Source: a virus
Lineage: Duplodnaviria; Heunggongvirae; Uroviricota; Caudoviricetes
Strand: one strand, 5' to 3'
Virus record (IMG/VR): IMGVR_UViG_3300041955_000143
Span: 37,290-101,289 of that record
Length of the DNA stretch: 64,000 nt
Shown: piece by piece, positions 1 through 37,033 of the stretch
Layout of the letters: each line of letters begins with the position of its first letter
Numbering within the stretch: the first letter of the stretch is position 1
Notes under the pieces: model-generated
The model's database searches: none
Told to the model about the DNA's origin: nothing
The model's input: only the letters and a program-made list of their open reading frames with translations
Program-made: the position numbers and the translations under genes

Positions 1-1885
1 GAGAATCGTTTTAGCGCCAGTCATTACGCCATGGCGAACTAACCCGCTTGCGCCAGCACCAGCACCAGCGCCAGCCGCCGCTCCAGCCCATTCCGCTGTC
101 TTCAGCGGATCGCCGCCGCTGAGAAAGGCGCCGATACTGCCGCCAGCTAGACCGGCCTCCATCATCTGCCGCACTGTGGTTGAGTTGCCGAGCGCCTTGC
201 GCGCGGCGTCATAAACAGTTTCGCGGTTGATTACGGCCTGCAATGCATTGGTGCCTTGTGGTCCAAGTATGGCGGTCGAAAGTTTACGTTGCTGCGGAGA
301 ATTGAGAACGCGAATCGTCACGTCATTTCGATCTGGCGTAGCCTCGACACGATCTGCCATTGCGGAGACGTATCCTTCACGAAATAACTCACGCTCGCTC
401 GGCTTCATCTTCGCCATCTGTTGAACGACGATAGCAGGATCACCCTTCCAGCGTGCAGCTTTACTTCCAGCCTCTAGCGCATCATTGGCACCAAAGAAAT
501 TAGCCGCCACGCCGCGAGCATTGCTGTAGCTCAGCACAAGATCATCGAGTTCGTTGCGCATAGTAGTCGCGAGACCAGTTAATGCGCCGCCCTCGCTCGT
601 TCTACCAGCGCGCATGGCCGCCGACGCCGCATCTCGAAGATTGCGATATGTGTAATCCCAGAATTGCAAATTAGGATACGTCGGGACACCTTGCGGTCCT
701 TTATTGAAGATCAAGCGCCCATCCTGAGTGATGCTAACACCAGGATTGAAGGCACCCATACCTTGCACGATCGCTCGATCTTGTCCTTGCGTCACCGCAT
801 CTTTCATGGCTGACTTGACGGCTGGACTCCCTAATAGAGTTTCCAGCGTTGGAGAAATCAGCGGTTTGTCGCCATCGGAATATGCCTGTTTGTAGGCTCC
901 GACGCGCGTCGCGTCATACGCGGCCTGCAATTCTGCTCGCGTGGTCGTCGCATCAGCACCGCCGCTGACGAGACCGCGCATGGCCGCGCCAACACGCTCA
1001 TTCTGGCCAGCGAATCTTTCCTGTATCGCCCCAGCAAGAGCGGCGCGTCCTTCCGGCGAAGTATTGGCTGCGGAGCGCAGCAATGCGCGCGTATTCTCGC
1101 CGCCAAGATCGGCAAGCATCACAGGCTCGCCAGCGGCTTTAGCTGCCATAAACTCAGTACCCGTAAGTCCTGGCGTCGTCCCGGCTGTTACTTGCGGATA
1201 ATCCCGCGTTAGTGCGCCAGCCACGCGCCGCGCTGCTTCGACTTCTGGATTTATCCAACCGCGGACGGTCGAAACAGCAGGCTTAACGAGATAATCAGCC
1301 GCAGCCTTCCCGATTGTCTCCAATCCAGCACCGCCAGCGCCGCCTACAGCGCCGCTTGCGGCACCAATCGCCGCTTTTTCCAGCGCATCAAGAGGATCGG
1401 TTCCTTCGCTCGCCCCGCTTATCCCGCCGTAAGTCGCGCCAATCTTCGCTCCTTGAGCAAGCCGCGCGGCTAGACCTGGACCGCTTGCCTCTGGGGCCAA
1501 TGCCATGGGCAAGACTGCGCCTGCCAATTCACTACCGCCATAGACATAGGGATGTTCTTTTTGTGCTTGCTGCTCTGCGGCCTTCGTAATATCGCGCATC
1601 TTTTCGTAAGCACCGCTAGGTCCACCAATTTCTTCTACTAATTTCGATACTTTCTCGTGTTCCTCTGGCGAGAGAGCTAAATAAGCTTCAGGTGGCACAC
1701 CAGACGCTGCCAAAGCTCCAGCGATTTGCGGAAGCCATCCTGCAGTGGCCCCTGATCCGACACCTAACGCCGCAGCCTCTAATTTTGATGTTTGCGGCTC
1801 AGATGTAGTTTTAGGCACAAGATCATCGAAACCGCTTGGCTGTGGCGGCTGATTCTGCGGGATAAGATCGTCGAATAGTCCCACG
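1..1885 (-). CDS. Large Gly/Ala-rich virion (internal/ejection-type) protein, N-terminal ~628 aa only; ORF runs off window start
   Basis: Minus-strand frame open from GTG at 1885..1883 (overlapping stop of upstream gene) to coordinate 1 with no stop; translation MGLFDDLIPQNQPP... is low-complexity G/A-rich like phage internal virion proteins; not in ORF track because no stop in window. Confidence 0.45.
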
Positions 1886-1886
1886 A

Positions 1887-4800
1887 TTATAGTCCAGACG
1901 GATCAATGCCCTGTTGACGTAGCCTACCTATCACGGCGTCACGCGGAGCACCACGCGCGATGGCATCACGAGCCTGACTAAGAATATCGTTAGCTGGCGC
2001 CGATCTCTCGGCAGCAGTTGGTGCCTCGCCGCCGATCCGTTCATAAGCTTCCTGTGCTTTCGGCGACAAGAATGAAATGTGATCGCGCGTCGTGCCAAAC
2101 GCTCGATCCCATTGATCAGCGACGGAATCGAGTTGGCCCTTAACTAAACGCACCAAAGTTTGATTAGCAACATGCTGTGCGTCCCGCGCCATAGTAGGAT
2201 CAAAGGCTGCAGCGCGCCACTTATCCAATTCTGCTTGTGCCGCACTACTTGACCCTTTGAACGCCTTTACTGCCTCGTCGTTCACGGCATTAGAAGCAGA
2301 TGCCACGCGCGTTAGACGCGGGTCTTGTTGATGTCTCAAAACCCAATTCCGTACTTCATTGGCATATTGCGTACCTAATCCCCACGGACCAATCGAATTG
2401 GATCTAAAATTATCCAAATCAGTCTGCGCGGCTTCTAATTCGTTCAAATGATTTGCCAAAGTATTCATTGGGCGGATGATGTTGCGCGCAGTCGGCCCCG
2501 AGGTAAATTCGCGTATTGCAGCGTTTCGTGCGGTCCAGTTAACCGCATCAAAACTCGGATCGTAAAGCGCGGCTGATTGCAACATCCCCTGCCAGAACGG
2601 TCGCGCCAATGCGAATGATGATGGCGGCGCAATCTTGCCTTGCACCATCATTTTTACAAGCGCCTGTTGCCCCGGCGTCATTCCTACTAATGCCTGATCG
2701 TTGAGTTGCTTCCCAGCAAGAGGATTCTGGAACACTTGTTCGGACAGGGTTCCTCCCTCTGGGGGCGCCACCACGGAGGTAATTCCAGATTGCCGAAGAA
2801 TCTGTGCAAGTTCCGCTTTTGCCTCTGGTGTTTCATCAGCCATCGCGACTCGCACTGATTGCGGCGTTGCTGGTGCAGTCCCTTGCGGCATATTAGCGGC
2901 AGCGGGCGCAGTAGCGGTCGGGACGGCGGGGGCGACGGTTGGAGTTGGGGATAGAGCAGGAATAGGAGAAGTTACCGGCTCGCCAATGGCGCCAGTGTTA
3001 GGATCAATACGCCTGAAAGTATTAGTTGCTGGGTCACGGATTCCATAAATGTCCTGCCCAAGCGGGCCAGTACCGATCTTTACGGGCTGCATGAGTTGAC
3101 GTCTCTCGGCAGCTTCTTTTTGAGCCAAAATCGCCCGCTGATCGGCCGTTAGATCGGTGTAAGGCCGCGTGTGCAGATCGAGTTCTGATTGCCAATGCTT
3201 GGCCTCAAGGTCTAATTTTTTGGCCTCTAAATCAATTTTTCTTTGGGTGAATCCGGCCGCTTGCTCCTGCTCTTTGAGACCTTGATAAGTCTGGGCCCCC
3301 ATCAGACCACCTTCACCGATCGCCACTCCTGGGAATGGAGAACGTGAAGCCAGCATCCCAAGACCAGCGGCCGTCAATGCTGGCCAAAGTTTAGAGTTCC
3401 CCGACCAGTCAATTCCGGCAGGCGTGGGCGAGGCTGCGGCCACTCCAGTCGGAGTAGGCGGTGCCGCGGGCGCAATGCCAGTTGGCGGCGGGGCGAAAGC
3501 GAGGGCCTGCGACGGCATACCGCCGCCCTCGAATTTGTTTTGCCACAGATTCGCAAACTGACCAGCCGTCATTCCCAAGCTGCCGCCGTTTTGTAGTACG
3601 GCATCGCGGCCGACGATGCTCGCCGCAGGCGCGTTGGGATTTGCCAAAAGGGCAAGTGCGCCGTTCGCGCCTTGCTGGTGAGCCAGATATAGCTCGGCGG
3701 CCGTAGGATCGCGGCCCAGCGCGGCGCGGAGAACCTGCTGGTTATCCCGCCCTAATCGTCCAGCCGCATCAGCGCTCGCCGCTGGGTCAGTGGGGTCATC
3801 CAAGCCGTATTGCTTGGCCGTGCTCGGAACGAATTGGAAAAGACCGCTCGCCCCGGAGAACTCATTCCTAGCGTCCGGATTGAGGCCCGATTCGATCTTG
3901 GCGGTTCTCGCCAAGTAACCAGACGGCAGGCCGTATTTGTCCTCTGTCTTGTCGAACAGGGTCGGGCTGCGCCCCGTTGAGACCTCGGGCGGCAACGCGG
4001 CCACACCAGCATCGGCATCGCTCGGGCGCGACGGCGGCAAGGGGACATCGGTGAGAACGCCGTTAGCCGCGTTGGGAGGCGGCAGCATAATCGCGGTATT
4101 GTCTGTCGGATTGATTACGCTACCCGCCCATGACGGCATATTGGTCACGTCGGAAAAGGCTTGATCGAAGTCTGGCCCTCCACCTTCCGCATAGCCGCGT
4201 GGCACCATTATCCGGTCGTGCGTCGGCAGACCGGCAATGCCGCCGGAGGCAAAACGGCCGACACCTCCGCCGTGTGCCCATCCGAGTCCGCTCTGGTCAG
4301 TACCCATACCGAATCCCGACATGTCGGCTGACACGCCAGGATTGGCCGGGGTGACGATATTGCCTTCGTATGTCGGGGCACCTCCACCGGACGGAATGTT
4401 GCCCGGCGAGACACCAACCGGCGCGTTCAGCCCTTGCTGAATGCCCTTTGCCATCTGGCCGATCTGCTGGCCTTGGACCTGCGGTTGCTGGGGTGGCTGT
4501 GGCGGCCTAGGAGGCCCAGGGCCGCGCGCTAGCGATCCGGTCGGCACATATCCAGTCCCGCCGCCATACGGCATCCCTGCCGCTCCGTAGGGGAATGCGG
4601 ATATGCCTGTGGTCTGACCGCCGCCGAGCGCAAAGCCTGGAACCTCGCCGCCTGCGGCAAAGTGTCGCGCTCTATTCGCTACACCGCCATGCCATCGGCG
4701 GATCGCGTCCTTCGTGGCCTCGTCGTAGTCGACGTGCTTGATGCCATGGACTTCATGCACGGCGTCTGGATGATGATGCTCGACGTCCTGCGCAACGAGT

Positions 4801-5762
4801 CCTATGCGAGTCTCAGGATCGCCCTTATAGTTGAAGCGATAGATGGTCTGGCCGTCGAATAGCTTGCCGATCCGATGCAGGTTCTCTTTCACTCTACGGT
4901 CGGAACCAGTTAGAAATGGTATCGCGCCAGCCGAACCGAATAATCCGGTGAGCGTCGTTCCCAAGCCGAGAGCCTGACTGATAGGATTTGGCGGCGGCCC
5001 AATCGTCTGCGCCGTTCCGCCCATCAAACTGCCGAGGCTTCCAGCAATCCCCGCTCCATATTGTTCAGTCTGGAACGGATAGGCGAGTTGGTTGAGGTAT
5101 TGCTGATAGTTGAAAACGTCTTGGGCTTGCTGCGTCTGTTGCTCAGTCGTACCAGCACCAATCTGCGCGCCAGCGCCCGTTAGCCCTAAATTCTGCGCCG
5201 ATCCCGCGATGCCGCTCAGGCCGTATGCTCCAGCCTGCGCCGCCTGTTGTTCGGAGAGCGCGGTGTTGACTCCTTGCGTATAACCCTGACTTTCGAGGCC
5301 AGCGATAACCGGGGCTTGGGCGAGTTGCTCTTGGTTCGCCGTTTCCGCCTGCGCGATCGCCTCGCGGTTGCCGCCGAGCGCACCCTGAGCAATCGCGTTG
5401 CCTTGCACCTGTTGTTGTTGGAGCGCGTTCTGCGCGTTGAACTCTTGTTGGGTCGCGCCGACGACCTGCTGCGTATAAGGATTCTCGTAATTCTGGATTT
5501 GAGCCGCCGTGATCGGTTGACCGGCGCTGAGCGCCATCTGCTCGGCGGTCGACATCGCCGGCTGCGCGGCGTTTGCGTATTGATTGATTCCACTGATCCC
5601 CGCATATTGCTGGGCATTTATTGGGGCCACGCCTTGGCCAGAAAAAGCAGTGTAGGGCGTCTGACTAAGATTAAGAGCATTGTTCAAAAGCGACGTGTAC
5701 GCCGACATCGCCTGCGGTGTAGGCGTCGTGGTTTGGGTCGTTGTATTCTTGTTCCCGCACAT
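1887..5762 (-). CDS. Multidomain virion protein: Q/G-rich N-terminus, internal peptidase-S74-like intramolecular chaperone motif (TGSDRRVKENL...GLVAQDVEHHHPDAV...VDYDEA), Pro-rich linker, SLT lytic transglycosylase domain (AKIESGLNPDARNEFSGASGLFQFVPSTAKQYGL)
   Basis: ORF open to 5822 but first 20 codons overlap the upstream gene; Met21 (5762) or Met39 (5708) is the likely start; domain motifs read directly from translation. Confidence 0.65.
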   Translation of the reverse strand: MCGNKNTTTQTTTPTPQAMSAYTSLLNNALNLSQTPYTAFSGQGVAPINAQQYAGISGINQYANAAQPAMSTAEQMALSAGQPITAAQIQNYENPYTQQVVGATQQEFNAQNALQQQQVQGNAIAQGALGGNREAIAQAETANQEQLAQAPVIAGLESQGYTQGVNTALSEQQAAQAGAYGLSGIAGSAQNLGLTGAGAQIGAGTTEQQTQQAQDVFNYQQYLNQLAYPFQTEQYGAGIAGSLGSLMGGTAQTIGPPPNPISQALGLGTTLTGLFGSAGAIPFLTGSDRRVKENLHRIGKLFDGQTIYRFNYKGDPETRIGLVAQDVEHHHPDAVHEVHGIKHVDYDEATKDAIRRWHGGVANRARHFAAGGEVPGFALGGGQTTGISAFPYGAAGMPYGGGTGYVPTGSLARGPGPPRPPQPPQQPQVQGQQIGQMAKGIQQGLNAPVGVSPGNIPSGGGAPTYEGNIVTPANPGVSADMSGFGMGTDQSGLGWAHGGGVGRFASGGIAGLPTHDRIMVPRGYAEGGGPDFDQAFSDVTNMPSWAGSVINPTDNTAIMLPPPNAANGVLTDVPLPPSRPSDADAGVAALPPEVSTGRSPTLFDKTEDKYGLPSGYLARTAKIESGLNPDARNEFSGASGLFQFVPSTAKQYGLDDPTDPAASADAAGRLGRDNQQVLRAALGRDPTAAELYLAHQQGANGALALLANPNAPAASIVGRDAVLQNGGSLGMTAGQFANLWQNKFEGGGMPSQALAFAPPPTGIAPAAPPTPTGVAAASPTPAGIDWSGNSKLWPALTAAGLGMLASRSPFPGVAIGEGGLMGAQTYQGLKEQEQAAGFTQRKIDLEAKKLDLEAKHWQSELDLHTRPYTDLTADQRAILAQKEAAERRQLMQPVKIGTGPLGQDIYGIRDPATNTFRRIDPNTGAIGEPVTSPIPALSPTPTVAPAVPTATAPAAANMPQGTAPATPQSVRVAMADETPEAKAELAQILRQSGITSVVAPPEGGTLSEQVFQNPLAGKQLNDQALVGMTPGQQALVKMMVQGKIAPPSSFALARPFWQGMLQSAALYDPSFDAVNWTARNAAIREFTSGPTARNIIRPMNTLANHLNELEAAQTDLDNFRSNSIGPWGLGTQYANEVRNWVLRHQQDPRLTRVASASNAVNDEAVKAFKGSSSAAQAELDKWRAAAFDPTMARDAQHVANQTLVRLVKGQLDSVADQWDRAFGTTRDHISFLSPKAQEAYERIGGEAPTAAERSAPANDILSQARDAIARGAPRDAVIGRLRQQGIDPSGL

Positions 5763-5764: not shown

Positions 5765-6448
5765 CTAAGTTGTGGCGATTGCCGCCGTCCCGTTGTTGGC
5801 TGTCTTTTTGGACGCACCCCACAAGTTATCTTCTGCTTGCACGGCCTCGGCGGCCTCCTTCAGTAGCGGCCCAAGTTTCTTCTGCGCCACTGAGAACGTG
5901 ATCGAGCGAGGCGATTTCGTACAAGTGTTTGCGAACTCCTTGAGTCTCTGCCGAAGTTCGCTGTGATCTTCCATCGGTTCAGAACGCCATTGCGGTGCAT
6001 TGAAAACAAAAAACGCGCCCGCAGGATAGCCAAGTGCGCGGCGATATAGGCGCACTTTTCCAGCCATGCTACGGTTCGTAATTATGCCAGTTACGAGCGG
6101 CATATTCATTTTCATGGCGCACGACTTGCCGAACTCGATCAGCGCCTCAGCATTATGCGATCGCCGATGATCGCCGTCGACAAAGTTCCAGAGTTCGGAA
6201 AGATGCCATTGATCGGAATACCAATAGTCGGACAGGATTAAACAGGTCGAAGCCTCGAGGTGTCCCGTTTCGCCGATCACTCCGACAATCGCCCCCTTTT
6301 GCTTGAAACAACGGTGCAAGTAGCCTCGGACCTTGTCCTCATTCAGCGTAAAGAGTCCGTTTTCCTCCCAAAGACGACGACACATCGACATTACATCGTC
6401 TTCATCGGCCGGGACGGCAATTCTTACTTTCGGAAGTTCTGTGCCCAT
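5765..6448 (-). CDS. hypothetical protein (227 aa)
   Basis: Co-directional ORF in virion gene string, contiguous with neighbours; no confident domain assignment. Confidence 0.4.
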   Translation of the reverse strand: MGTELPKVRIAVPADEDDVMSMCRRLWEENGLFTLNEDKVRGYLHRCFKQKGAIVGVIGETGHLEASTCLILSDYWYSDQWHLSELWNFVDGDHRRSHNAEALIEFGKSCAMKMNMPLVTGIITNRSMAGKVRLYRRALGYPAGAFFVFNAPQWRSEPMEDHSELRQRLKEFANTCTKSPRSITFSVAQKKLGPLLKEAAEAVQAEDNLWGASKKTANNGTAAIATT

Positions 6449-8046: not shown

Positions 8047-9084
8047 TCACTTCTTCGCTGGCGGCGGCAGTTTTCGCAACGTGCCGATCTCTTTCTTACG
8101 TTGGCTCATTACGAAATTGTCCAACGCAGCGTGTCCGAGTTTAAGGCTCCCGTGTTTTTGGATAATGGCCCAAGGTGGAACGATTACCTCACCACCACTA
8201 ACATCGACAGGGACCGCTTCGTAATGGCCAGCGCCACGTGCGCCACCTTCGCTGTAGGTAAACAACCCGCCTCCAATGGCAAACTTGGTGAATGCCCTCG
8301 GCGGACGAGGTAGATTGCCGTGAGGCATGTGCGGCGTTGGCCCCATGCCGTAAGGCCCCATATGGTACATTTTCCCTAAAAGGTTCATTCCAGCCAAGGA
8401 GTTGCCGTGCCCTAAAGAAGACACGGTTGAGGAAGGGACCACGTAAGAGCCCGCAGGAACTTTGATTTGATGCGCGTCGGTGCGACCTGGCACAGATGAA
8501 ACAACTGGCCCGACGTGTAATTGTCTCGCCTCGTTCCGCTCGAACCACGGCGGATTCATGCTTGGCGGTCGACTCACGTTCAGGCCGCCCATTTGGCGGT
8601 TTGCGACGCCGCCGCGGCGGAGCAACTGAGTCCCCATAGGTCTAACGGGTTGCGATTGCGCGGTCCCGACGGTACTCGCCGCAGTGGTTGCCGCGTTCGG
8701 CATTAACGGATTTGTGGATTGCGTTCCCGGTGCAACGCCAACGGTATTAGTGGCATTGGTTAGTGCCGTGGCAACGGCGCTACTCGGCGCCGCAGGATTC
8801 GATGCTCCCGGCACGGCAGGCGATGGGGCACCAGTCGATCCCGCGCCAGCCCCGGAGCCCTGTTGGAGAGCGCTTATGATGGCTTGAACGGGGTTAACGC
8901 CTCCGCCGTCGTCGAAGGTTGGAACCACGCCGCCAGAGGCTTTCCGCGAATTGGAAAGCGCTATGGCGATAGCCTGCTTGCGCGCCCTTTCCGGACCAAA
9001 CTTCCCGAGCGTATGGGCGAAGGTTTTACCCCCGCGCAACTCCTTGATGGTCTCGCCGACAGGTGCGCCAGGAGTGAGCGGCAT
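8047..9084 (-). CDS. Gly/Pro-rich virion-associated protein (345 aa) with repeated basic-GG-hydrophobic motifs
   Basis: Long ORF in structural block; motifs RGGKTF, SGGVVP, RRGGVANRQMGG, SGGEVIVP resemble repeats in the 296-aa protein at 17742..18632. Confidence 0.45.
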   Translation of the reverse strand: MPLTPGAPVGETIKELRGGKTFAHTLGKFGPERARKQAIAIALSNSRKASGGVVPTFDDGGGVNPVQAIISALQQGSGAGAGSTGAPSPAVPGASNPAAPSSAVATALTNATNTVGVAPGTQSTNPLMPNAATTAASTVGTAQSQPVRPMGTQLLRRGGVANRQMGGLNVSRPPSMNPPWFERNEARQLHVGPVVSSVPGRTDAHQIKVPAGSYVVPSSTVSSLGHGNSLAGMNLLGKMYHMGPYGMGPTPHMPHGNLPRPPRAFTKFAIGGGLFTYSEGGARGAGHYEAVPVDVSGGEVIVPPWAIIQKHGSLKLGHAALDNFVMSQRKKEIGTLRKLPPPAKK

Positions 9085-10543: not shown

Positions 10544-12619
10544 TCAGCGCCTCCCTGCCGGCGCGTAGCGCCACTTACAGCTTCCCAACCTATAGAAGCT
10601 CCCGATGTCGCTGGTCTGGACACCGATCGCCATCAGCCGACCGCGGAAGCGAACACTGAGGTATTCAGTTTGCTGAGTGCAGGTATAGGGCCCGTAGGCG
10701 ATTGGCGTGTCGCCAGGATAGTTGACAACATAGAACGTCATTTGGATTTGGGCCGAGTTGCTGCCGCCAGCAAAGGTTTCCCATTTGAAATCCGGCAGCA
10801 CTTGGTCGACGAAAACAAATTCTTCGCCTTCCGCGAGGTAGAAGAAGCCCGTGAGGAAGCTGGAAACCAGCGGGGCTCCCGCTGCGTCTGGCGTCGTTTC
10901 GTGCTGGTAGATAATTCCGTTCGGCGAGGCACCAATCGGCATACCGAGCACACTCTGGTCGATCCAGGCCGACCGAGGCCAAGGGCCGTAATCCCAAGGT
11001 TGTCCCGGTTCGACCACGTTCATCTTGACGTAGGTATCGCACTCGCCGCTCACACTGGCCGCGCTTGGGAAAAGCCAGCCGACCTCGTTGAAGGGCGTGT
11101 TCGGCATGGTCCGGACATTCTGCAGATAATTCGTATTGATGTTCTGGAAGACACTGTCCCAGACCGGACACGGGATCGGCGCAACGCCACCGCTAGTGTA
11201 GCTGTAAAAATTGTTCCGCCCCATCCAATAGACGCTGCCGGAGAGATTCTGCATGGCATGAGACGAGATCATGCCCATGCCGACGCCGATCTTGTTAAAG
11301 CCGAAGACGTCAGGCGGCCCGATATAGGTCATTGCCCACAGATCGAGGTCGGTCCAAATGAGATTTTGATTTGGCGCCGACATGCCGCCCATGATCGCGG
11401 AGCCGGATGGGATCGTGAAGTTGCCGGCCTGTGTCTGAGCGCTGGCGACCCAATTAAAGAAGTTCGAGACGTCGCACCACTCTACCAAGAGTAATTGCTG
11501 CTGAAATCCAATTCCCTGCTTAACGGACGATCCGTAGGCGATAAGAATTTGCTCAGACATCGAGATAAAAATGCCGTTATTGAACGGCGGCCCGCTCGAA
11601 ATGATCTGCGCGTTTTGAAATCCGCCAGTCGGGTCCCAATAGAAAATGCCGCCGCCTTTCGGGCAGGCGACAAGAATGTTGCCCCAATTATCTTCCGTCC
11701 AATCGGTCGCGGTTATTTCTGTCCCGGTTTGCGGGGCACCGCTGATCGAGCCGCTGCCGGTTCCGTAACCACCTTCGCCATACCCACCTGCGCCATAACC
11801 GCCGCCGCCAGCAGCAGAGGCTGGACCGAGCGCAATGGAATAGACTAGCTGCGCGTTGCCGCCGTTCATCGGGAATGCGCCGCTGGCCGTGGCCTGCGTG
11901 GTGGTAGCTATGGTAAAATCATTGGCGTCGGTGACCGAAACCACGTCGTAGGCGGCGTCAATCGTGACGCCATTGCCAGTGGTCGTGATGGGGAAAACAA
12001 CCGTGCTTCCTACCGATTGGCCGTGAGCAACGAAGTTCACTGAGACAATTTCGCTGCCGATCGTCGTCGTGAAGATCGGAAGGCTCGGAACTCCACTCGT
12101 CGAGATCGCTGGTGCTGGCGCCCCCGTAATAAAGTTGATCGCGGTAATCTGATAGGAATCGGTCCCAGTTATATTCGTGATCGGGTAGAGACCGTCGAGG
12201 ATAATGCCGCCGATCGACACCGGCACATTGAAAAAGACAGAATCGAATGTCGTGACGTTGGCAATGTTCGGATCGGTGATTGTTACGACGGCACTCCCGG
12301 CCGTGGTCGAGAAGGACGGCGCGAAGTTGGAAATCAGCGTTTGTGGCGTAATATCCTTGAGCGAGTTGTTCGTTATGACCGCAAGCTGCTCAGTGGTCCC
12401 TATTCCGAGATGGGTGTTTGTGTTCAAGTCCTCCCAGGCATGAAGGTCCCGCGGTGTGCCCTTGATCGGATAGGGGTAGAATTGCTTGTAGCCGCCGAGC
12501 TTTTGAACCAAGCCGCCCTTAAATCTGACCATGCTCGCGGACGAAATCCCGGCGCGAAGCAGCGTCGGCGTCGATAAGACGTTAACTCCGGGAACGAGCG
12601 CAACGCTGCCAAATCCCAT
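10544..12619 (-). CDS. tail protein (691 aa; tail tubular/spike-type)
   Basis: Large S/T/G-rich beta-type sequence with Gly-Tyr linker (GGGGYGAGGYGEGGYGTG); sits between fiber gene and lysis-like small genes. Confidence 0.55.
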   Translation of the reverse strand: MGFGSVALVPGVNVLSTPTLLRAGISSASMVRFKGGLVQKLGGYKQFYPYPIKGTPRDLHAWEDLNTNTHLGIGTTEQLAVITNNSLKDITPQTLISNFAPSFSTTAGSAVVTITDPNIANVTTFDSVFFNVPVSIGGIILDGLYPITNITGTDSYQITAINFITGAPAPAISTSGVPSLPIFTTTIGSEIVSVNFVAHGQSVGSTVVFPITTTGNGVTIDAAYDVVSVTDANDFTIATTTQATASGAFPMNGGNAQLVYSIALGPASAAGGGGYGAGGYGEGGYGTGSGSISGAPQTGTEITATDWTEDNWGNILVACPKGGGIFYWDPTGGFQNAQIISSGPPFNNGIFISMSEQILIAYGSSVKQGIGFQQQLLLVEWCDVSNFFNWVASAQTQAGNFTIPSGSAIMGGMSAPNQNLIWTDLDLWAMTYIGPPDVFGFNKIGVGMGMISSHAMQNLSGSVYWMGRNNFYSYTSGGVAPIPCPVWDSVFQNINTNYLQNVRTMPNTPFNEVGWLFPSAASVSGECDTYVKMNVVEPGQPWDYGPWPRSAWIDQSVLGMPIGASPNGIIYQHETTPDAAGAPLVSSFLTGFFYLAEGEEFVFVDQVLPDFKWETFAGGSNSAQIQMTFYVVNYPGDTPIAYGPYTCTQQTEYLSVRFRGRLMAIGVQTSDIGSFYRLGSCKWRYAPAGRR

Positions 12620-12629: not shown

Positions 12630-13553
12630 TCATCCGGCTCGAATCAAGGTGACACCCGCGATCTGCACGGGAGGTATTGTATTGAAAGAACTGGGACTTG
12701 CGCTACCGACCTGAGCGCCAGTAAAAGTTAAAGATGAACTCGCGAGGATGGCGGCGCAAGGCACTCCCGAGCCCGAATTGGTAACCGGCACACGTCCAGG
12801 ATTGGTTGCATCGTTACTAAAACCCGACGTAGGAGCACTGAACGCCAATGAATTAAGCGTCACCGTGCCACTTGGCGTGAATTGCGGTAGTTGATTGGTG
12901 TTGCCCAGAGCTTCCGTATCCGCGCCACCAGCGGCGAGGAATGTGTCACCGCTAACGCCAGACGCGCTAATGCGCCCTGTCCCCTGATTGAACGATGCGC
13001 GGACGCGGCCACGCAAATCAGGCGTGACGTTGCTATTGCCAAGCAGCGCGTAAAGCTGTGGATAGGTCGCTTGGTTAAACACACTGCCGTTGCAAACGAG
13101 GTAAGGCGACACCGTACATGCTGTCATCCACGCCGGAAGCCCACTGTTGCCGCCAGCATACGCGAGATCGAGATACGTCCCGACCGGCGGCAGATCAACG
13201 TAGTCCATGTTCGTGCCGTCGTTGAAGACGTATGTCTTCTGACCGGGAGGTGCGCCAATCGCGTTACCGCCGCCAGAACTGGCAAGCTGGACGTAAAAGG
13301 CTCCGACCTGACAGCGATTCTCAATTATGAAGAAACCAGGGACCGGAATTGTAATCACGATATTTGCCGTGATTGCCCCAGTAAATCGAAGTAGTGCGCT
13401 TTGAGACTGGTACGGACCGGCCCAGGCTGCGCCTGAGTTCGGAGGCGTGCTCAATGTTACAGGTGCATTTGTCAGTCCGATTGTTGCGATATTGCCTACG
13501 AGGCTGTCCGTGGCTGAAAAATTCGCGTTACAAGGCTGATTCCATGAGCCCAC
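12630..13553 (-). CDS. tail fiber protein with phage tail-collar domain
   Basis: Motif LPAWMTACTVSPYLVCNGSVFNQATYPQLYALLGNSNVTPDLRGRV matches tail-collar (PF07484) signature PxGW..CDG....YP.L...G....LPDLRGR. Confidence 0.65.
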   Translation of the reverse strand: MGSWNQPCNANFSATDSLVGNIATIGLTNAPVTLSTPPNSGAAWAGPYQSQSALLRFTGAITANIVITIPVPGFFIIENRCQVGAFYVQLASSGGGNAIGAPPGQKTYVFNDGTNMDYVDLPPVGTYLDLAYAGGNSGLPAWMTACTVSPYLVCNGSVFNQATYPQLYALLGNSNVTPDLRGRVRASFNQGTGRISASGVSGDTFLAAGGADTEALGNTNQLPQFTPSGTVTLNSLAFSAPTSGFSNDATNPGRVPVTNSGSGVPCAAILASSSLTFTGAQVGSASPSSFNTIPPVQIAGVTLIRAG

Positions 13554-19138: not shown

Positions 19139-21568
19139 TCATGGTCCAACGCCGGTTGGTTCGGGCGGTGCGGACTGCACTTGCCGGTCGAGATCGTTCT
19201 GCGCCGCTTCGTGGAGATGGCCGAGCGCGCCAGACACCAGCTTGTGCCGCCGGTCCTCGACCCCCATAGCCGCGTCGTGGCGACGCTGGGCGGCGCTTTC
19301 CGCTGACCTATGGGCAAGACCCTCCGCAGCCCGTTGCCGCGCTGCACGGCTCGCCATGGTCGCCAGAGCTAGCTTGTGGATGCGATCGGCCGCAGCGTTC
19401 TGATTCTCGACCCCGCGCGCCCGTTCTGCCGCCGCTAGGTCGCCTTGGTGGATAATCTGTTCCCTCGCCACTCCGAGCGAAGCGATTCGCTCCTTGCTCT
19501 GCAATTCCTGCATGCCTTGGGCCGCCTTGATGTCGGCTTCCTTGGCGCGGGTCTGAGCGTCGGCGATCCGAGCCTGTGCCGCCATAATCGTCGCTTGCGC
19601 CGTCAACTGCTCGGGCGGCGGGGGCGGCGGCGGCGAGCCTGGCGCGGGCGGTGGCTTGAAGAAGTCCTGTGCATCGTTAATGCCCATGACGCTCATCGCC
19701 CGCTCGTCGACCTTGTTCATGTCGAGGTTTTGATTCGTCGCCGCCATCTGCCGAAGCGCTACGACCTTGAGATAACGCTCGGTCTGGCTCGAGGTGTTCG
19801 GATCGGCGGCCGGCATCAATTCGCAATCGCTCAGCGCGGCAAGGAACATTGCACGGTGCCGATCTTCCGCCTGTTCCTCGGCATCGGAGACCGGCTGTTG
19901 CCCGGCCATCGCGGTTAACATCTTGAGAACCTTGCTCTTTTTATTGTGCCGCCACAACGCCTCCGGGTCTTCCATCAACAGACTTTTGAGCATATCGAAC
20001 TCTTGGCCTTGGGCTTGGTGCAATCTCTTGTGCACCGCCGACATGAGCTTCGTCGCTTGCTCGATCAGCGCCAAGGTCGTGCCGACCGGAGCGTCCTGCT
20101 TGCCTTCCCCGATTTGGAGCTCGGCCGTGCCGCCGACCCGCTGCGCCGTCGTCGCGATGTTCTCGATTAACTGAATGAAAACGGCGCTCGGGTCCTTGTA
20201 GGGCAGCGGCATGATCGACTGCCGGATGTCCTGCCCGTTGGTGTCGATCGGCATGCCGCCGCCGGGCGGGATGCGGAACTGATTCGTTAACTGCTTCGCC
20301 AGCGATTTGAGGTAGAGGAAGCCGGGGAAGTTGGCGAACATGCCAGCGTCGATCATCAGCCGCCACGCCGCGGTCACCGCCTTCGTGGCGTTGCCGAGTA
20401 CGTTCAAGAGACCGATGCCGTAGAAGCCCAAGCCGGGGATGAAGATATAGGCGATGATCCGGTTCCGCGGCATGCAGAACAGGTCCTCTTCCTCCCAATT
20501 CCTGCGGATTTCGAGGATGCGGCGCGATTCGCGGTCCAGCACCACCTTGTACGGCAACGGCAATCCGGTCTCGACCTGTTCGCCGGTCTTGTCGTCCTTC
20601 AGCGTGTGCTCGAATCCGGGGACTTCGATCTCGCAGTAGCACTCGTATAGTTCGCGGTCCTGGTCGGCCGGTTCTGTATAGGTCGTCGGCGCAATGCCTT
20701 GGACTTGGTCGATCTTGGTCTTGACCGCATCCTTTTGGGTCTGCGCCATGTTCTCTGGAAGCGCGATGTCCAGATATGCGCCGATCAACTGCATCCGCCG
20801 CAACAGGCTCGGCTTCATAAAAATGCGGTGGGTAATGCGGCCCGCGCCGTCAATATCGCTCGCCGTGTTCGAGACGATCAGATCCTCGGCATTGATCGAG
20901 GCAATGACTGGGCGCCGCTTGATCGGATCGTGATAGCCCTTCTTGAACGAAATCCCCGAAAATCCGAGCATCAAGAGCATACGATCGGTGTCGGGATAGT
21001 ATTCCTTGGCAACCTTTATCAGGTAGTGGTTGAGGTCCTTTTCTAGTTCTGTCGCCAGCTTGTCGGCGAGTTCGTTGCCTTCACCGTCGTTCCGGACCTT
21101 GACCGGGCCGTCGCTCGGCAATAGCTCGCCTCGGGCATTGGCTTGGAACCGCAGCACCGCCTCGAGCAATAGCGGATGATCGACCGTGGAGACGCCTTCG
21201 GCTGGCGTTGCTCCGCTCGCCGCAGCGCCGCGGGGATTTTTCACCTGCAGGCCAAGCAACGATATGCCGTTGCTCATGTTCTCAAGCCACTCGGAGCGGC
21301 TTTGCAGGTCTAACTCAATGCCTTGGAGTAGCCTTTCGGCAATCTGGGAAAGGTCGGAGTCTGCCAATAATTCCGCTAGGTTATCGCCGAACTCAGCCGT
21401 TTCCTTGCGCGGTTGCGGTCGTGGCCCGAACGTCACGTCAACCATGCCGTCGGGATTTTCCTGCACTAATGCGCCAGTGTGAACGTCGTAGTCGTCGTCC
21501 GGATTGATAACGACGGTGATCGCCTGCCCGGGCGTGGCACTATCGACGGCGTAGGCGGCGTCCGACAT
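19139..21568 (-). CDS. portal protein (809 aa, P22-like with long C-terminal helical region)
   Basis: Position downstream of terminase, size, internal FIPGLGFYGIGLLN hydrophobic core and long C-terminal Ala/Gln-rich helical tail as in P22-type portals. Confidence 0.6.
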   Translation of the reverse strand: MSDAAYAVDSATPGQAITVVINPDDDYDVHTGALVQENPDGMVDVTFGPRPQPRKETAEFGDNLAELLADSDLSQIAERLLQGIELDLQSRSEWLENMSNGISLLGLQVKNPRGAAASGATPAEGVSTVDHPLLLEAVLRFQANARGELLPSDGPVKVRNDGEGNELADKLATELEKDLNHYLIKVAKEYYPDTDRMLLMLGFSGISFKKGYHDPIKRRPVIASINAEDLIVSNTASDIDGAGRITHRIFMKPSLLRRMQLIGAYLDIALPENMAQTQKDAVKTKIDQVQGIAPTTYTEPADQDRELYECYCEIEVPGFEHTLKDDKTGEQVETGLPLPYKVVLDRESRRILEIRRNWEEEDLFCMPRNRIIAYIFIPGLGFYGIGLLNVLGNATKAVTAAWRLMIDAGMFANFPGFLYLKSLAKQLTNQFRIPPGGGMPIDTNGQDIRQSIMPLPYKDPSAVFIQLIENIATTAQRVGGTAELQIGEGKQDAPVGTTLALIEQATKLMSAVHKRLHQAQGQEFDMLKSLLMEDPEALWRHNKKSKVLKMLTAMAGQQPVSDAEEQAEDRHRAMFLAALSDCELMPAADPNTSSQTERYLKVVALRQMAATNQNLDMNKVDERAMSVMGINDAQDFFKPPPAPGSPPPPPPPEQLTAQATIMAAQARIADAQTRAKEADIKAAQGMQELQSKERIASLGVAREQIIHQGDLAAAERARGVENQNAAADRIHKLALATMASRAARQRAAEGLAHRSAESAAQRRHDAAMGVEDRRHKLVSGALGHLHEAAQNDLDRQVQSAPPEPTGVGP

Positions 21569-24324: not shown

Positions 24325-26118
24325 CTATCCACCTACCCCGTAGGCGTTTGCGACCGTATCGTGCGGTGGGCCTTTGTAGCGCATTTCGTCTTCAAGGAGA
24401 CTACTCATCTCCTCAGCGCGCACAAGCAATCCTTGCTCGCGGAGCCAGCCGATCGCCATGCTGCAAGAATCCACCAGGTCGTCATGCTCGCCTCTGGGGA
24501 ACAACTCATTTTGCTGGATCGTATCCTCCGCCCATTTCGTGTTCGGAGCCCAGATAGCTCCATCGGTAAACATCGGCACGATCGAATGTGCCCGCGAAAC
24601 CTTGTCACCGACCGGGTTGACCATCCAGATTCCCCAATTCTCGCGGGCGTAGAGCCGCCGAATTTCGTTCGCGACGTCATGGCCGCGAGTCTTGTTCTCG
24701 ATCAAAAGCCGGTTGACCTTGTAGCGCTTGCAGGTATCGGCAACCCATTCGACCAGGCCCCATTCGTGCTGCTGGCGAGAGGTGAAACTGACCTTGGCCT
24801 CGCCGGGCCGCGCCGAGATCACCTTGCCGTGAAGCGGCAACCGCTTCGCCCACGCAAACATCAGCATCGCGCGGCGGTTCTTGTTGACGTCGACCCAGAT
24901 GCCCCAGACCGTCAAGGCGTTAAAGTCGTTCTCGGTTTTCTCGCCGAGCGCGGTGTCGAGGCTGGCGACGATCAGATCGCACAGCGGAAACTCCTTGCGG
25001 TTCTCATTCCACTCCAAGCCATAAACCTTGGCCGCAGTTCCATCCCAAGTCTGCCACCAGTCTCGTTTGATGATGCCGCCTCCCTTCGGAATAGGCGATT
25101 GCTGCAGACGACCACTCGCCATATAGATTCCGAGCGTACTCTTGATTCGGCGCAACTCTTTCTGCCCAAACCGTTCTGGCCACATCAGTTCGTCAGGTTC
25201 AGTGCGTGGGTCCTCGAAAAACACCTCCTCGCAATCGTCAACGTCCTCGTCGAAGAACGACTCGATCATGTCGCTGCCAGTGCGGTATCCGTTCACCCAT
25301 CGCCGCGGCACGTACTCCATGGGAATAACCAGCGTGCAGTATTCCTCTTGCCCCGCGAGCACTATGCCCGAGAGATCGCCCTGGTGAAGGCGCTGCATGT
25401 TCAGGACGATGGCGCTTTGCTTAGGATCGTTGAGGCGCGTCGATGATAACTCCTGCCACCAGCTTGCGACCTTGCGCCGATCAGCGTCGGTCTCGATCTT
25501 TTTTTCAGTCTCGGTGTTGTGGGGATCGTCCACGGAAATAATGTCACCGCCGAGCCCTAGAAGCGAACCGCTAACCGACGTGGCAATACGCGACCCACCT
25601 TCAGTGTTGTCGAAATGGTGCTTCGCAGCCTGGTCGATGCGCAGCGTAAAACGATCCGCCCAATAGCGTTGATAGAACGGACTGAGCAATAGCCGGCGTG
25701 TCTGGTTCGAGGCTGTCAGTGAAAGCCGCTCGTTATAGCTACCACTAAGAAACGCTACCTGCGGCCCGCTGAGAAAGGTACGTTCGGACCGCGCCCATAT
25801 CCAGGCGTTCCAAGCCACTGAAACCATTTTGGTTTTGCCGGTCCTTGGGGGCTGATTTATGAGCAGCCGCAGGATGTGACCTTCTGTGACGGCCTGAAGG
25901 TGGTCGCAAACGGCACCTATAATCCACGAATCTTGGAACGGAGCCGAATCAATCGAAGGCCACGCCGCCTCGAGGAAATCGCGGAAGCTATTTTCGTATA
26001 GCTCTCGTTCCTCACGCCAGTTTCTCTCGCGGAGTTTTGAGCGGAGAATGTCTACACGCTCAATAATGTCGGGGGTGATGGTTTGGTCGGTCATCGCATC
26101 GCGTCGTGGCCAGACCAA
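24325..26118 (-). CDS. terL: terminase large subunit
   Basis: 597 aa; Walker A-like NQPPRTGKTKM, Walker B-like GGDIISVDDPHNTE, C-terminal nuclease-type acidic residues (HDDLVDS); size and position before portal. Confidence 0.8.
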   Translation of the reverse strand: MVWPRRDAMTDQTITPDIIERVDILRSKLRERNWREERELYENSFRDFLEAAWPSIDSAPFQDSWIIGAVCDHLQAVTEGHILRLLINQPPRTGKTKMVSVAWNAWIWARSERTFLSGPQVAFLSGSYNERLSLTASNQTRRLLLSPFYQRYWADRFTLRIDQAAKHHFDNTEGGSRIATSVSGSLLGLGGDIISVDDPHNTETEKKIETDADRRKVASWWQELSSTRLNDPKQSAIVLNMQRLHQGDLSGIVLAGQEEYCTLVIPMEYVPRRWVNGYRTGSDMIESFFDEDVDDCEEVFFEDPRTEPDELMWPERFGQKELRRIKSTLGIYMASGRLQQSPIPKGGGIIKRDWWQTWDGTAAKVYGLEWNENRKEFPLCDLIVASLDTALGEKTENDFNALTVWGIWVDVNKNRRAMLMFAWAKRLPLHGKVISARPGEAKVSFTSRQQHEWGLVEWVADTCKRYKVNRLLIENKTRGHDVANEIRRLYARENWGIWMVNPVGDKVSRAHSIVPMFTDGAIWAPNTKWAEDTIQQNELFPRGEHDDLVDSCSMAIGWLREQGLLVRAEEMSSLLEDEMRYKGPPHDTVANAYGVGG

Positions 26119-36639: not shown

Positions 36640-36658
36640 TTGCGTAACGTAAGGGAGT

Positions 36659-37030: not shown

Positions 37031-37033
37031 CCA

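What the first reader, a model, noticed from the sequence alone, without database searches (positions are those of the whole stretch)
1887..5762. Giant virion protein with an internal S74-type autoproteolytic chaperone motif upstream of an SLT transglycosylase domain
Residues ~307-385 (nt ~4904..4668) carry the hallmark SDRRVKENL...GLVAQDVEHHHPDAV...VDYDEA of intramolecular chaperone/peptidase S74 domains. These normally sit at the extreme C-terminus of tail fibres or spikes and are cut off at the Ser. Here the motif is internal, followed by ~900 aa including a Pro-rich linker and a lytic transglycosylase domain (~nt 3527..3950). Autocleavage at Ser307 would release a Q/G-rich fibre-like N-terminal piece from a cell-wall-degrading C-terminal piece.
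Basis: partly seen in the sequence, partly recalled or inferred. Interest (0 to 1): 0.6.

Follow-up and report, generated by a model that had tools for sequence, protein, structure and literature searches.

The report
Self-cleaving phage ejection protein fusion
A 1,291-residue phage protein that is probably injected into the host carries, in its middle rather than at its end, a small self-cutting "S74" folding module followed by a cell-wall-cutting enzyme; the layout proves common in uncultured phages, but nobody has yet shown that the cut happens.

Summary
ORF 1887-5762 (-) encodes a 1,291-aa protein. It matches Pfam Peptidase_S74 at aa 287-335 (26.4 bits, threshold 22) and SLT at aa 602-667 (37.6 bits, threshold 21.3).

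- **S74:** Ser287 and Lys292 sit at the spacing of the S74 catalytic pair, and AlphaFold2 models the module at pLDDT 90-94.
- **Context:** the gene lies in a podovirus-type structural module. It follows a P22-gp10-like protein and a weakly GNAT-like gene that occupies the P22 gp14 / T7 gp13 position.
- **Split relatives:** isolated relatives encode a ~330-370-aa protein ending in S74, then separate injection proteins.
- **Family size:** the fused form is common. 1,247 clusters match at E<=1e-30, almost all listed being 900-2,100 aa.
- **Catalytic pair:** 117 of 121 S74-bearing members keep both Ser and Lys.
- **Optional module:** S74 is dispensable. Two 77%-identical Rhizobium prophage proteins differ by exactly this module.

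Best reading: an ejection-protein fusion that trimerises and probably cuts itself at Gly286|Ser287, giving 29 and 105 kDa fragments. The cut is inferred, not shown. This is a new variant of a known kind, of moderate interest.

The parts
1887..5762 (-). Whole gene: 1,291-aa internal virion (ejection) fusion protein; stop codon at 1889-1887
   Evidence: ORF. The start is supported by gene spacing and by conserved N-termini. An identical protein counted from Met19 is P0001, from a 101-kb JGI contig.
4905..5762 (-). N-domain, aa 1-286: Q/A/G/T-rich and acidic (pI 4.05), predicted as long helices. It is the most conserved part of the family.
   Evidence: phrog_4287 covers aa 3-348. Homologues are 55-65% identical over aa 1-280. 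AlphaFold2 predicts helices 16-33, 50-81, 86-125 and 133-242 at pLDDT 65-80. Composition.
4905..5054 (-). Gly-rich hydrophobic tail of the N-domain, aa 237-286, ending at the predicted cut site (...GLFGSAGAIPFLTG)
   Evidence: Highest hydropathy window in the protein: aa 266-284, Kyte-Doolittle 1.18. Low pLDDT. Conserved as G/hydrophobic-rich in alignment A1.
4689..4904 (-). S74 / intramolecular-chaperone module, aa 287-358. Putative nucleophile Ser287 (4904-4902) and base Lys292 (4889-4887). Predicted cut between Gly286 and Ser287.
   Evidence: Pfam PF13884, 26.4 bits against a threshold of 22. pLDDT 90-94. Profile hit to MYRF ICA 7dc3 with Ser and Lys columns aligned. Ser and Lys retained in 117 of 121 homologues.
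3966..4688 (-). Gly/Pro-rich, probably disordered linker, aa 359-599, with short GG-x-V...F/Y-[AD]-x-GG motifs at aa 359-376 and 498-510
   Evidence: Composition and motifs. pLDDT below 50. Consensus 'RGGxVxGYADGG' in A1 and A2.
3525..3965 (-). Lytic transglycosylase (SLT) domain, aa 600-746. Putative catalytic Glu624 (3893-3891); motifs ES 624-625, GLFQF 640-644, YLAHQQG 692-698.
3306..3389 (-). Family-wide conserved Gly-rich hydrophobic motif, aa 792-819 (LWPALTAAGLGMLASRSPFPGVAIGEGG)
   Evidence: Nearly invariant columns in A1 and A2. Modelled as a helix at aa 792-807. Hydropathy only 0.91, so not a classical transmembrane helix.
2967..3305 (-). Long helix (aa 816-865) followed by further helices (to aa 890) and a small four-stranded beta unit (aa 894-929)
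   Evidence: AlphaFold2 model, pLDDT 75-88.
1890..2828 (-). C-terminal all-helical domain, aa 979-1291, preceded by a Pro/Ala-rich spacer at 2829-2966
5765..6448 (-). Upstream partner gene (227 aa), weakly GNAT-like, in the position of P22 gp14 / T7 gp13 ('head assembly protein')
   Evidence: 30% identical (E 9e-23) to the 'putative acetyltransferase' upstream of the giant gene in MW202675, which gives sub-threshold GNAT hits. 38-49% identical to genes upstream of the giant gene in four prophages. Positional equivalence taken from the GenBank note on phiGT1_16. Fused to the giant protein in P0046.
1..1884 (-). Next gene of the module: at least 628 codons from GTG 1884, running off the window
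   Evidence: Open frame. phrog_5880, E 2.6e-74. 36% identical (E 1e-52) to the 1,007-aa gene that follows the giant gene in an Ancylobacter prophage.

Best explanation
**What it is.** The gene encodes an internal virion (ejection, or 'pilot') protein of a podovirus-like phage or prophage from a soil bacterium. It is a natural fusion of functions that cultured relatives spread over adjacent genes:
- a helical N-domain ending in an S74 module, in the slot of the second internal virion protein;
- a peptidoglycan-cutting domain;
- a conserved hydrophobic motif plus a helical C-domain.

**How it most likely works.**
1. After synthesis, the S74 module (aa 287-358) brings three chains together.
2. 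As in tail-spike chaperone domains and in eukaryotic MYRF, Ser287 activated by Lys292 cuts the bond Gly286|Ser287.
3. This releases a 29-kDa acidic N-fragment whose new C-terminus is a Gly-rich hydrophobic tail.
4. The remaining 105-kDa fragment starts with S74 and carries the SLT enzyme.
5. Both fragments are packaged in the head and expelled at infection. The SLT domain (Glu624) opens the cell wall, while the hydrophobic segments and helical domains help build the DNA conduit.

**Shown by computation:** the domain identities, the conserved catalytic residues, the gene context, the fusion/split relationship, and the size of the family.

**Inferred:** trimerisation, the cut itself, packaging, and the roles at entry.

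**Rough confidence by step:** domain.95; ejection-protein role 0.8; actual self-cleavage 0.6.
For: **Domain identity.**
- S74 and SLT both pass Pfam thresholds.
- The S74 core is modelled at pLDDT 90-94.
- The SLT fold matches phiKZ gp144 with Glu624 at the aligned catalytic glutamate.
- Ser287 and Lys292 have the S-x4-K spacing and align with the corresponding columns of the MYRF ICA domain and the S16 fibre S74.

**Conservation of the catalytic pair.** An HMM of the S74 core was built without the Ser, Asp and Lys columns. It finds the domain in 123 of 217 family proteins. On the 215 with a usable N-domain, 117 of 121 keep both Ser and Lys. 122 have more than 500 residues after the Ser.

**Virion and ejection role.**
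- Terminase, portal and a P22-gp10-like protein lie upstream on the same strand.
- aa 3-348 match all of phrog_4287, 'DNA ejection protein'.
- The same gene order occurs in MW202675, where an acetyltransferase-like gene precedes a 1,185-aa 'internal virion protein D'.
- Positional equivalents are annotated as virion structural or injection proteins in Brucella Tb, Sulfitobacter NYA-2014a and phiGT1.

**Fusion versus split.**
- Bradyrhizobium phage ppBeUSDA76-2 has a 367-aa phrog_4287 protein ending right after S74.
- It abuts a 496-aa gene homologous to aa 1036-1243 of this protein, followed by a phrog_26400 ejection protein.

**Not an assembly artefact.**
- 821 word-index hits, all 120 listed being 946-1,524 aa.
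- 1,247 clusters at E<=1e-30.
- Fused genes with internal S74 occur in prophages of Rhizobium sp. BK316 and Bradyrhizobium cenepequi CNPSo 4026.

**Precedent for an internal, cutting S74.** MYRF/MrfA (PMC3828593) is known to be cut by an internal S74-type domain.
Against: - **S74 is dispensable.** The prophage proteins of Rhizobium sp. BK316 and R. lusitanum P1-7 are 77% identical in the N-domain and differ by a clean presence/absence of the ~66-aa module.
- **S74 is variable across the family.** Of 215 family proteins, 73 have nothing at this junction and 21 have an unrelated ~150-aa module. At least 43 changes of state are needed on a neighbour-joining tree. Separating the two halves therefore cannot be essential to the family's function.
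- **Some copies have lost the nucleophile.** Four members keep the S74 core but lack the Ser, which hints at a role other than cutting.
- **The module is short.** It is about 72 aa. The solved chains that matched (7dc3, 179 aa; 6f45, 204 aa) continue 36-61 residues beyond the aligned core. From my own knowledge, these extensions are helical and take part in trimer formation.
- **No oligomer evidence.** No trimer model could be run.
- **Weak structural support for the N-domain.** It has only moderate pLDDT, and Foldseek gave no informative match for it.
- **No direct homology to model ejection proteins.** No sequence homology to T7 or P22 ejection proteins was found. Brucella Tb gp23 shares only the S74 segment, and gp25 and gp26 show no detectable similarity.
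- **No experimental data.** No proteomic or biochemical data exist for any fused member.
Confidence: 0.6

Rival explanations
1. The S74 module is a non-cutting oligomerisation or folding cassette. It trimerises the giant protein but the chain stays intact in the virion, as it must in the many relatives that have no S74.
For: S74 is present or absent between near-identical relatives and is missing from 73 of 215 family members. Four members keep the fold but lack the Ser nucleophile. The module is shorter than the solved, cutting S74 domains.
Against: Ser and Lys are retained in 117 of 121 S74-bearing members, measured with a profile that ignores those columns. From established knowledge, every S74 domain tested so far with an intact pair cuts itself (endosialidase chaperone domain, MYRF; PMC3828593). 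Split-gene relatives show that the N-piece works as a separate polypeptide.
Confidence: 0.25
2. It is an external tail fibre or tail-associated lysin. The N-part would be a trimeric fibre matured by S74, and the rest a tail-tip cell-wall hydrolase.
For: Weaker PHROG hits to families named 'tail fiber protein' (phrog_1980, phrog_5668) and 'lytic tail protein' (phrog_2013). GenBank calls the split homologues 'tail fiber domain-containing protein'. Enterococcal tail lysins that carry an S74 domain are described (PMC10194240).
Against: - The gene sits in the internal-virion-protein slot, after the gp10-like and gp14/IVPA-like genes and before another large injection-type gene.
- A separate tail-collar fibre gene exists at 12630-13553.
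- The N-domain is the conserved part, and it is predicted helical, not a beta-helix.
- The strongest N-terminal PHROG match, full length to the profile, is 'DNA ejection protein'.
- The SLT cassette is 56% identical to the one at the N-terminus of the T7-gp16-like internal protein of Rhizobium phage RHEph01.
Confidence: 0.08
3. The long ORF is an artefact: two or three genes merged by a sequencing or assembly error or by a frameshift.
For: Cultured relatives have separate genes.
Against: The same fused architecture appears in hundreds of independent contigs from different sources, with lengths of 900-2,100 aa. It also appears in prophages of isolate genomes. The frame is open throughout.
Confidence: 0.02

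Closest known systems
C-terminal intramolecular chaperone domain (Peptidase S74) of endosialidases and tail fibres, e.g. K1F endoNF, T5 pb1, S16 gp37
   Same: Same Pfam family with the same Ser...Lys (S-x4-K) pair. The core aligns to S16 gp37 (6f45). It sits directly after an elongated N-terminal region.
   Different: Here the domain is internal, with 1,005 residues after the Ser, so cutting would leave S74 on the larger fragment rather than discard it. The upstream part is predicted helical, not a triple beta-helix. The carrier is an ejection protein, not a receptor-binding protein. The module is shorter than the solved examples.
MYRF / MrfA internal ICA (S74) domain of eukaryotic membrane-tethered transcription factors
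   Same: An internal S74 domain with a functional N-terminal part upstream and a long C-terminal part with a hydrophobic segment downstream. MYRF is the best PDB match to the family's S74 profile (7dc3, E 8.6e-4). In MYRF the cut frees an N-terminal trimer (PMC3828593).
   Different: There is no NDT80-type DNA-binding domain. The downstream hydrophobic motif is not a classical transmembrane helix. The biology differs (virus entry versus transcription). Cleavage is unproven here.
Stand-alone S74-ended proteins in the second internal-virion-protein slot of alphaproteobacterial podoviruses: Bradyrhizobium ppBeUSDA76-2 367-aa protein, Brucella Tb gp23, Sulfitobacter NYA-2014a SUFP_020, phiGT1_17 (phrog_4287)
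   Same: Same gene position, after an acetyltransferase-like gene and before peptidoglycan-hydrolase and injection proteins. Same N-terminal start (MG.K/MGG.SK). S74 lies at aa ~260-300. The ppBeUSDA76-2 protein and this N-part both match the whole phrog_4287 profile.
   Different: In those phages the protein ends a few residues after S74 and the following functions are separate genes. Here they form one polypeptide. Tb gp23 shares only the S74 segment detectably.
T7 gp16-type internal virion protein D with an SLT domain (e.g. Rhizobium phage RHEph01 gp48); phiKZ gp144
   Different: In T7-like phages SLT sits at the N-terminus of gp16. Here it lies mid-protein, after the N-domain, S74 and a linker. 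No other part of gp16 is detectably similar.

Membership tests
Peptidase S74 / intramolecular chaperone auto-processing domain (PF13884) | Profile match above the curated threshold | tested here: met
   26.4 bits against a threshold of 22, E 8.4e-6, aa 287-335 covering profile positions 1-57 of 58.
Peptidase S74 / intramolecular chaperone auto-processing domain (PF13884) | Catalytic Ser and Lys five residues apart at the start of the domain | tested here: met
   Ser287 and Lys292. They align with the corresponding columns of MYRF 7dc3 (where the chain has Ala at the Ser position) and S16 gp37. Both are retained in 117 of 121 family members.
Peptidase S74 / intramolecular chaperone auto-processing domain (PF13884) | Fold of the solved S74 domains | tested here: inconclusive
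   A confident model (pLDDT 90-94; strands 292-300, 306-312, 318-321, 335-338, 341-344; helices 324-330, 346-358). Foldseek with the whole 400-aa model was swamped by helical hits and returned no S74 structure. The module lacks the C-terminal extension present in the solved chains.
Peptidase S74 / intramolecular chaperone auto-processing domain (PF13884) | Position at the extreme C-terminus of a trimeric fibre or spike, discarded after cutting | tested here: not met
   1,005 residues follow the Ser. The same holds for 122 homologues. This arrangement matches the MYRF type, not the tail-spike type.
Peptidase S74 / intramolecular chaperone auto-processing domain (PF13884) | Trimerisation-dependent self-cleavage | not testable with these tools
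   This needs expression of wild type and S287A/K292A mutants, or a multimer model. Only monomer predictions were available.
Family-1 lytic transglycosylase (SLT, PF01464) | Profile match, catalytic Glu in the ES motif, goose-lysozyme-like fold | tested here: met
Family-1 lytic transglycosylase (SLT, PF01464) | Muralytic activity | not testable with these tools
   Needs zymography or a turbidity assay.
Podovirus internal virion / ejection proteins (T7 gp14-16, P22 gp7/gp20/gp16) | Gene position after tubular-tail-B/gp10 and the gp14/IVPA-like gene, within the late structural operon | tested here: met
   Order on the minus strand: terminase, portal..., phrog_3287 (P22-gp10-like in relatives)..., GNAT-like gene, this gene, phrog_5880 gene.
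Podovirus internal virion / ejection proteins (T7 gp14-16, P22 gp7/gp20/gp16) | Detectable homology to a characterised ejection protein | tested here: inconclusive
   Full-length match to phrog_4287, which is named 'DNA ejection protein' but is uncharacterised. The SLT cassette is shared with the RHEph01 gp16 analogue. There is no hit to T7 or P22 proteins in the PDB beyond the SLT fold.
Podovirus internal virion / ejection proteins (T7 gp14-16, P22 gp7/gp20/gp16) | Presence inside the capsid and expulsion into the host envelope | not testable with these tools
   Only indirect evidence: split homologues are annotated 'virion structural protein' in Brucella and Sulfitobacter phage records.
MYRF-type membrane-tethered factor | NDT80-type DNA-binding domain upstream of the ICA domain and a transmembrane helix downstream | tested here: not met
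   Pfam finds no domain other than S74 and SLT. The best downstream hydrophobic window scores only 0.91. This is an analogue in layout, not a member.

The most novel reading that the evidence does not exclude
The S74 module may act at entry rather than at virion assembly.

Ejection proteins must pass through the narrow tail channel largely unfolded. They then refold in the periplasm, which has no ATP-driven chaperones. A built-in, energy-free trimerising chaperone would let the N-domain reassemble there. The self-cut, triggered by that trimerisation as in MYRF, would then release the N-fragment as the outer-membrane part of the conduit while the SLT-bearing fragment moves inward.

On this reading the fused, uncut protein is the packaged form, and cleavage is an infection-time switch.

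A related idea, also not excluded, is that this large phage family, rather than tail spikes, supplied the internal-S74 layout captured by eukaryotic MYRF.
Probability: 0.12. Interest if true: 0.8.

Novelty: new variant of a known kind. Interest (0 to 1): 0.5.

Why it matters
- **Where S74 is known.** S74 domains are known as throw-away C-terminal chaperones of phage fibres and spikes, and as the internal self-cutting switch of eukaryotic MYRF.
- **What is new here.** An intact S74 sits in the middle of a phage ejection protein, in a family with over a thousand sequence clusters. This points to an unrecognised maturation step for the least understood virion components of short-tailed phages.
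- **Ejection-protein copy number.** It would also imply copy numbers in multiples of three.
- **Link to MYRF.** It gives a viral counterpart to the MYRF layout.
- **Practical use.** It provides a domain map for thousands of 'hypothetical' giant proteins.
- **Where to test it.** It points to culturable lysogens, Rhizobium sp. BK316 and Bradyrhizobium cenepequi CNPSo 4026, with R. lusitanum P1-7 as a natural S74-less control.
- **Limit on the claim.** Because the module is optional, the likely pay-off is a variation on known themes rather than a new principle.

Tried and rejected
- **Circular first test of Ser/Lys invariance.** The first check (alignment A1) used sequences I had picked with a regex that required S, D and K. 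I redid it with an HMM lacking those columns.
- **False 'empty' downstream region.** I first noted that window 1-1886 had no gene. That was an artefact, because the ORF listing omits ORFs that run off the window. A gene of at least 628 codons is there.
- **Uninformative fold search.** Foldseek of the aa 1-400 model against the PDB returned only generic coiled-coil or helical hits with E>0.1.
- **Source contig not retrieved.** A look-up of the source contig through P0001 failed.
- **Brucella Tb comparisons.** hhalign of the family profiles against Tb gp25 and gp26 found no similarity, and gp23 matched only in the S74 segment. Tb is therefore a positional comparator, not a sequence one.
- **Alternative module unidentified.** The ~150-aa module that replaces S74 in 21 relatives has no Pfam, PDB or convincing PHROG match.
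- **Literature searches.** Searches found no description of an internal S74 in phage ejection proteins. The phiGT1 supplement held no relevant proteomics.
- **N-terminal acylation idea set aside.**
  - Considered: the neighbouring GNAT-like protein might acylate the conserved MG/MC/MS N-terminus.
  - Against: the window's copy lacks a recognisable acetyl-CoA motif and gives no Pfam hit.
  - Better explanation of the adjacency: the gene is the P22 gp14 / T7 gp13 assembly-protein equivalent.
  - Verdict: kept only as a remote possibility.

Full report
**1. What is in the sequence**

The minus strand carries one uninterrupted ORF from 5822 (GTG) to 1887. It lies 2 nt past the stop of the upstream gene. 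It also gives MCGNKNTTTQ..., which fits the signature M-[G/C/S]-x-K-G-S-x-T-T-T. That signature opens 166 of 217 homologues, with Gly at position 2 in 71%, Cys in 19% and Ser in 9%. The protein is 1,291 aa.

**2. The two domains are real**

- **S74.** Pfam gives Peptidase_S74 at aa 287-335 (26.4 bits, threshold 22, E 8.4e-6). AlphaFold2 with a 53-sequence alignment models aa 290-358 at pLDDT 90-94. A profile of the family's S74 segments finds the solved MYRF ICA domain (7dc3, E 8.6e-4) and the phage S16 fibre S74 (6f45). The Ser and Lys columns align in both.

**3. The rest of the protein**

| Residues | Feature | Evidence |
|---|---|---|
| 1-286 | Q/A/G/T-rich, acidic (pI 4.05) N-domain, predicted as long helices at moderate confidence | |
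| 237-286 | Gly-rich hydrophobic tail of the N-domain, ending at the predicted cut site | |
| 359-599 | Gly/Pro-rich linker, probably disordered | |
| 792-819 | Family-wide conserved Gly-rich hydrophobic motif | |
| 816-932 | Long helix, shorter helices and a small beta unit | |
| 933-978 | Pro/Ala-rich spacer | |
| 979-1291 | Confidently modelled helical C-domain | |

The C-domain has no specific structural relative and no PHROG match.

**4. Gene context**

The minus strand from about 26 kb down to 1 is a podovirus-type structural module:
- terminase at 24325-26118;
- an SU10-type portal at 19139-21568;
- a tail-collar fibre at 12630-13553;
- a phrog_3287 protein at 10544-12619, whose counterpart in MW202675 is called 'phage stabilization protein' (the P22 gp10 type);
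- an HNH nuclease;
- a 227-aa gene at 5765-6448;
- the giant gene.

The 227-aa gene is homologous to the 'putative acetyltransferase' that precedes a 1,185-aa 'internal virion protein D' in MW202675. It is also homologous to the genes preceding the giant gene in four prophages. In Sulfitobacter phage phiGT1 the gene in this position is annotated as RimL-like and equivalent to P22 gp14 and T7 gp13. It is followed by an S74-ended protein and two 'internal virion/injection' proteins. That is the classical slot for ejection proteins.

Directly after the giant gene, a further gene of at least 628 codons starts at GTG 1884 and runs off the window. I first missed it because the ORF lister omits ORFs that are cut by the window edge.

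**5. Fusion versus split**

aa 3-348 match the entire phrog_4287 profile, 'DNA ejection protein', at positions 6-385 of 392. So elsewhere the N-domain plus S74 is a complete protein.

Bradyrhizobium phage ppBeUSDA76-2 shows this directly:
- a 367-aa phrog_4287 protein ends 6 residues after the S74 core (hhalign probability 99.7 over aa 225-355);
- its stop codon abuts a 496-aa gene that is 32% identical to aa 1036-1243 here (E 2e-29);
- a phrog_26400 ejection protein follows.

Brucella Tb (gp22 acyltransferase, gp23 S74 protein, gp25 peptidoglycan hydrolase, gp26) and Sulfitobacter NYA-2014a have the same layout. For Tb, though, only the S74 segment is detectably homologous.

The SLT cassette here is 56% identical to the one at the N-terminus of the T7-gp16-like protein of Rhizobium phage RHEph01. 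The window's protein is therefore a mosaic fusion of ejection-protein modules, and the fusion places S74 in the interior.

**6. How common the fused form is**

- A word-indexed search found 821 homologues, and all 120 listed are 946-1,524 aa.
- An exhaustive HMMER scan with aa 1-362 found 6,879 clusters at E<=1e-3 and 1,247 at E<=1e-30. Nearly all of the best 150 are 900-2,100 aa, and only two (395 and 421 aa) end after S74.
- Fused genes with internal S74 sit in prophages of Rhizobium sp. BK316 and Bradyrhizobium cenepequi CNPSo 4026 and in an Ancylobacter MAG.
- Among 50,697 deposited phage genomes, only the metagenomic MW202675 has a detectable N-domain homologue.

**7. Is the catalytic pair under selection?**

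My first test was circular, because I had selected sequences with a regex containing S, D and K. I repeated it with an HMM of the S74 core that omits those columns. The domain is found in 123 of 217 proteins. On the 215 with a usable N-domain, 117 have both Ser and Lys, and 4 (P0106, P0110, P0111, P0117) have a 'dead' S74 without the Ser. That is strong conservation, consistent with an active protease. It also shows that a non-cutting S74 can be tolerated.

**8. S74 is an optional cassette**

- Of 215 family proteins, 73 have nothing between the N-domain and the linker.
- Another 21 have an unrelated, His-rich ~150-aa module with no match in Pfam, PDB or PHROGs.
- On a neighbour-joining tree of N-domains, at least 43 changes of state are needed. 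This figure is rough, since the tree is approximate and recombination is likely.
- The cleanest case is the BK316 and P1-7 prophage pair. Their proteins are 77% identical through the N-domain, align again afterwards, and differ by exactly the ~66-aa S74 module.
- SLT is optional too. Only about a dozen of the 120 listed hits carry PF01464, and two carry a lysozyme domain instead.

Separating the N-piece from the rest therefore cannot be indispensable for the family.

**9. Mechanism**

The best-supported reading is as follows. The protein is an ejection-protein fusion. S74 trimerises it, and Ser287/Lys292 cut Gly286|Ser287. That gives a 29.1-kDa N-fragment with a hydrophobic Gly-rich C-terminus and a 105.1-kDa fragment that begins with S74. 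This is the MYRF arrangement, in which S74 stays on the C-terminal product (PMC3828593). At infection the SLT domain opens the peptidoglycan.

- **Shown by computation:** domains, residues, context, the fusion/split relationship and family size.
- **Inferred:** trimerisation, cleavage, packaging and entry roles.

The main rival is that S74 only oligomerises or folds the chain without cutting it. An external-fibre reading fits the gene position and the conservation pattern poorly. An assembly artefact is excluded by the many independent fused homologues.

**10. Comparison with what is known, and novelty**

The domain is a member of Peptidase S74 by profile and catalytic residues. It fails the usual positional feature, a discarded C-terminal domain of a fibre. 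Its layout resembles MYRF, but it is not a MYRF family member.

C-terminal S74 on the protein in this gene slot is already noted in GenBank records (Brucella phages in PMC4422536; phiGT1, NYA-2014a, RHph_N2). Tail lysins with S74 are also described (PMC10194240).

I found no paper describing an internal S74 in a phage ejection protein. These searches cover open-access papers and bioRxiv preprints only. I rate it a new variant of a known kind, of moderate interest. Its main value lies in the size of the uncharacterised family and in the existence of culturable lysogens in which the cut can be tested.

Noticed in passing
window 1-1884 (-): A further large gene starts at GTG 1884, 2 nt after the giant gene's stop, and runs off the window (at least 628 codons). 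It matches phrog_5880 (unknown function, E 2.6e-74) and the 1,007-aa gene that follows the giant gene in an Ancylobacter prophage (36% identity, E 1e-52). It is probably another injected protein. The ORF listing does not show it because it is cut by the window edge.
   Followed up: partly
window 5765-6448 (-); P0046; L010-L012 and L018 upstream genes: A weakly GNAT-like 227-aa gene always sits immediately upstream of the giant gene, in the P22 gp14 / T7 gp13 position. In one metagenomic homologue (P0046) it is fused to the giant protein's N-terminus. The window's copy gives no Pfam hit and lacks an obvious acetyl-CoA-binding motif.
   Followed up: partly
window 5735-5762 (-), aa 1-10 of the giant protein: The family has a conserved N-terminal signature M-[G 71% / C 19% / S 9%]-x-K-G-S-x-T-T-T in 166 of 217 proteins. 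It superficially resembles eukaryotic N-acylation motifs. Its function is unknown, and a link to the adjacent GNAT-like gene is pure speculation.
   Followed up: partly
P0003 aa ~300-465; P0006, P0014, P0025 and 17 others: A His-rich ~150-aa module (…PTIPE…GHRRVQMFPxGT…ELLDLGP…) occupies exactly the S74 slot in 21 of 215 family proteins. It has no match in Pfam, PDB sequences or PHROGs.
   Followed up: partly
window 4635-4688 and 4233-4271 (giant protein aa 359-376 and 498-510); window 8047-9084 (-), 345-aa protein, aa 51-66, 156-167, 271-285: A short Gly-rich motif (GGVANR / GG-h-x(2-6)-[FY]-[AD]-x-GG) recurs in the giant protein's linker and in a separate 345-aa structural-module protein. 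Homologues show it as 'RGGxVxGYADGG'. It may be a shared docking or packaging motif, but this was not tested.
   Followed up: no
L011 6001-9657 versus L018 6001-9522: Prophage proteins of Rhizobium sp. BK316 and R. lusitanum P1-7 are 77% identical in the N-domain and differ by a clean insertion or deletion of the ~66-aa S74 module. This is a natural control pair for experiments.
   Followed up: yes
L005 13967-23048: In the contig carrying homologue P0003, the giant gene is followed by 1,112-aa and 1,921-aa genes. The second has hits to DUF7178, InPase and, faintly, ART-PolyVal. It resembles the polyvalent injected proteins of Bcep22-like phages.
   Followed up: no
window 37817-38884 (+): An IS1595-family transposase (DDE_Tnp_IS1595 E 6e-32 plus its zinc ribbon) is inserted in the phage region and overlaps a 517-aa minus-strand ORF (36590-38143).
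   Followed up: no
window 28678-28776 (-): ARAGORN calls a 99-nt tRNA-Gly (ACC) inside ORF 28564-29025. The odd length, and the absence of any Rfam hit at gathering threshold, make it doubtful.
   Followed up: no
window 47232-58091: An SPFH/Band-7 protein (47232-48254) and an ERF recombinase (49365-50303) lie here, then a family-21 glycosyltransferase (56772-58091) that could be host DNA. The window may span a prophage end. No integrase was looked for.
   Followed up: no
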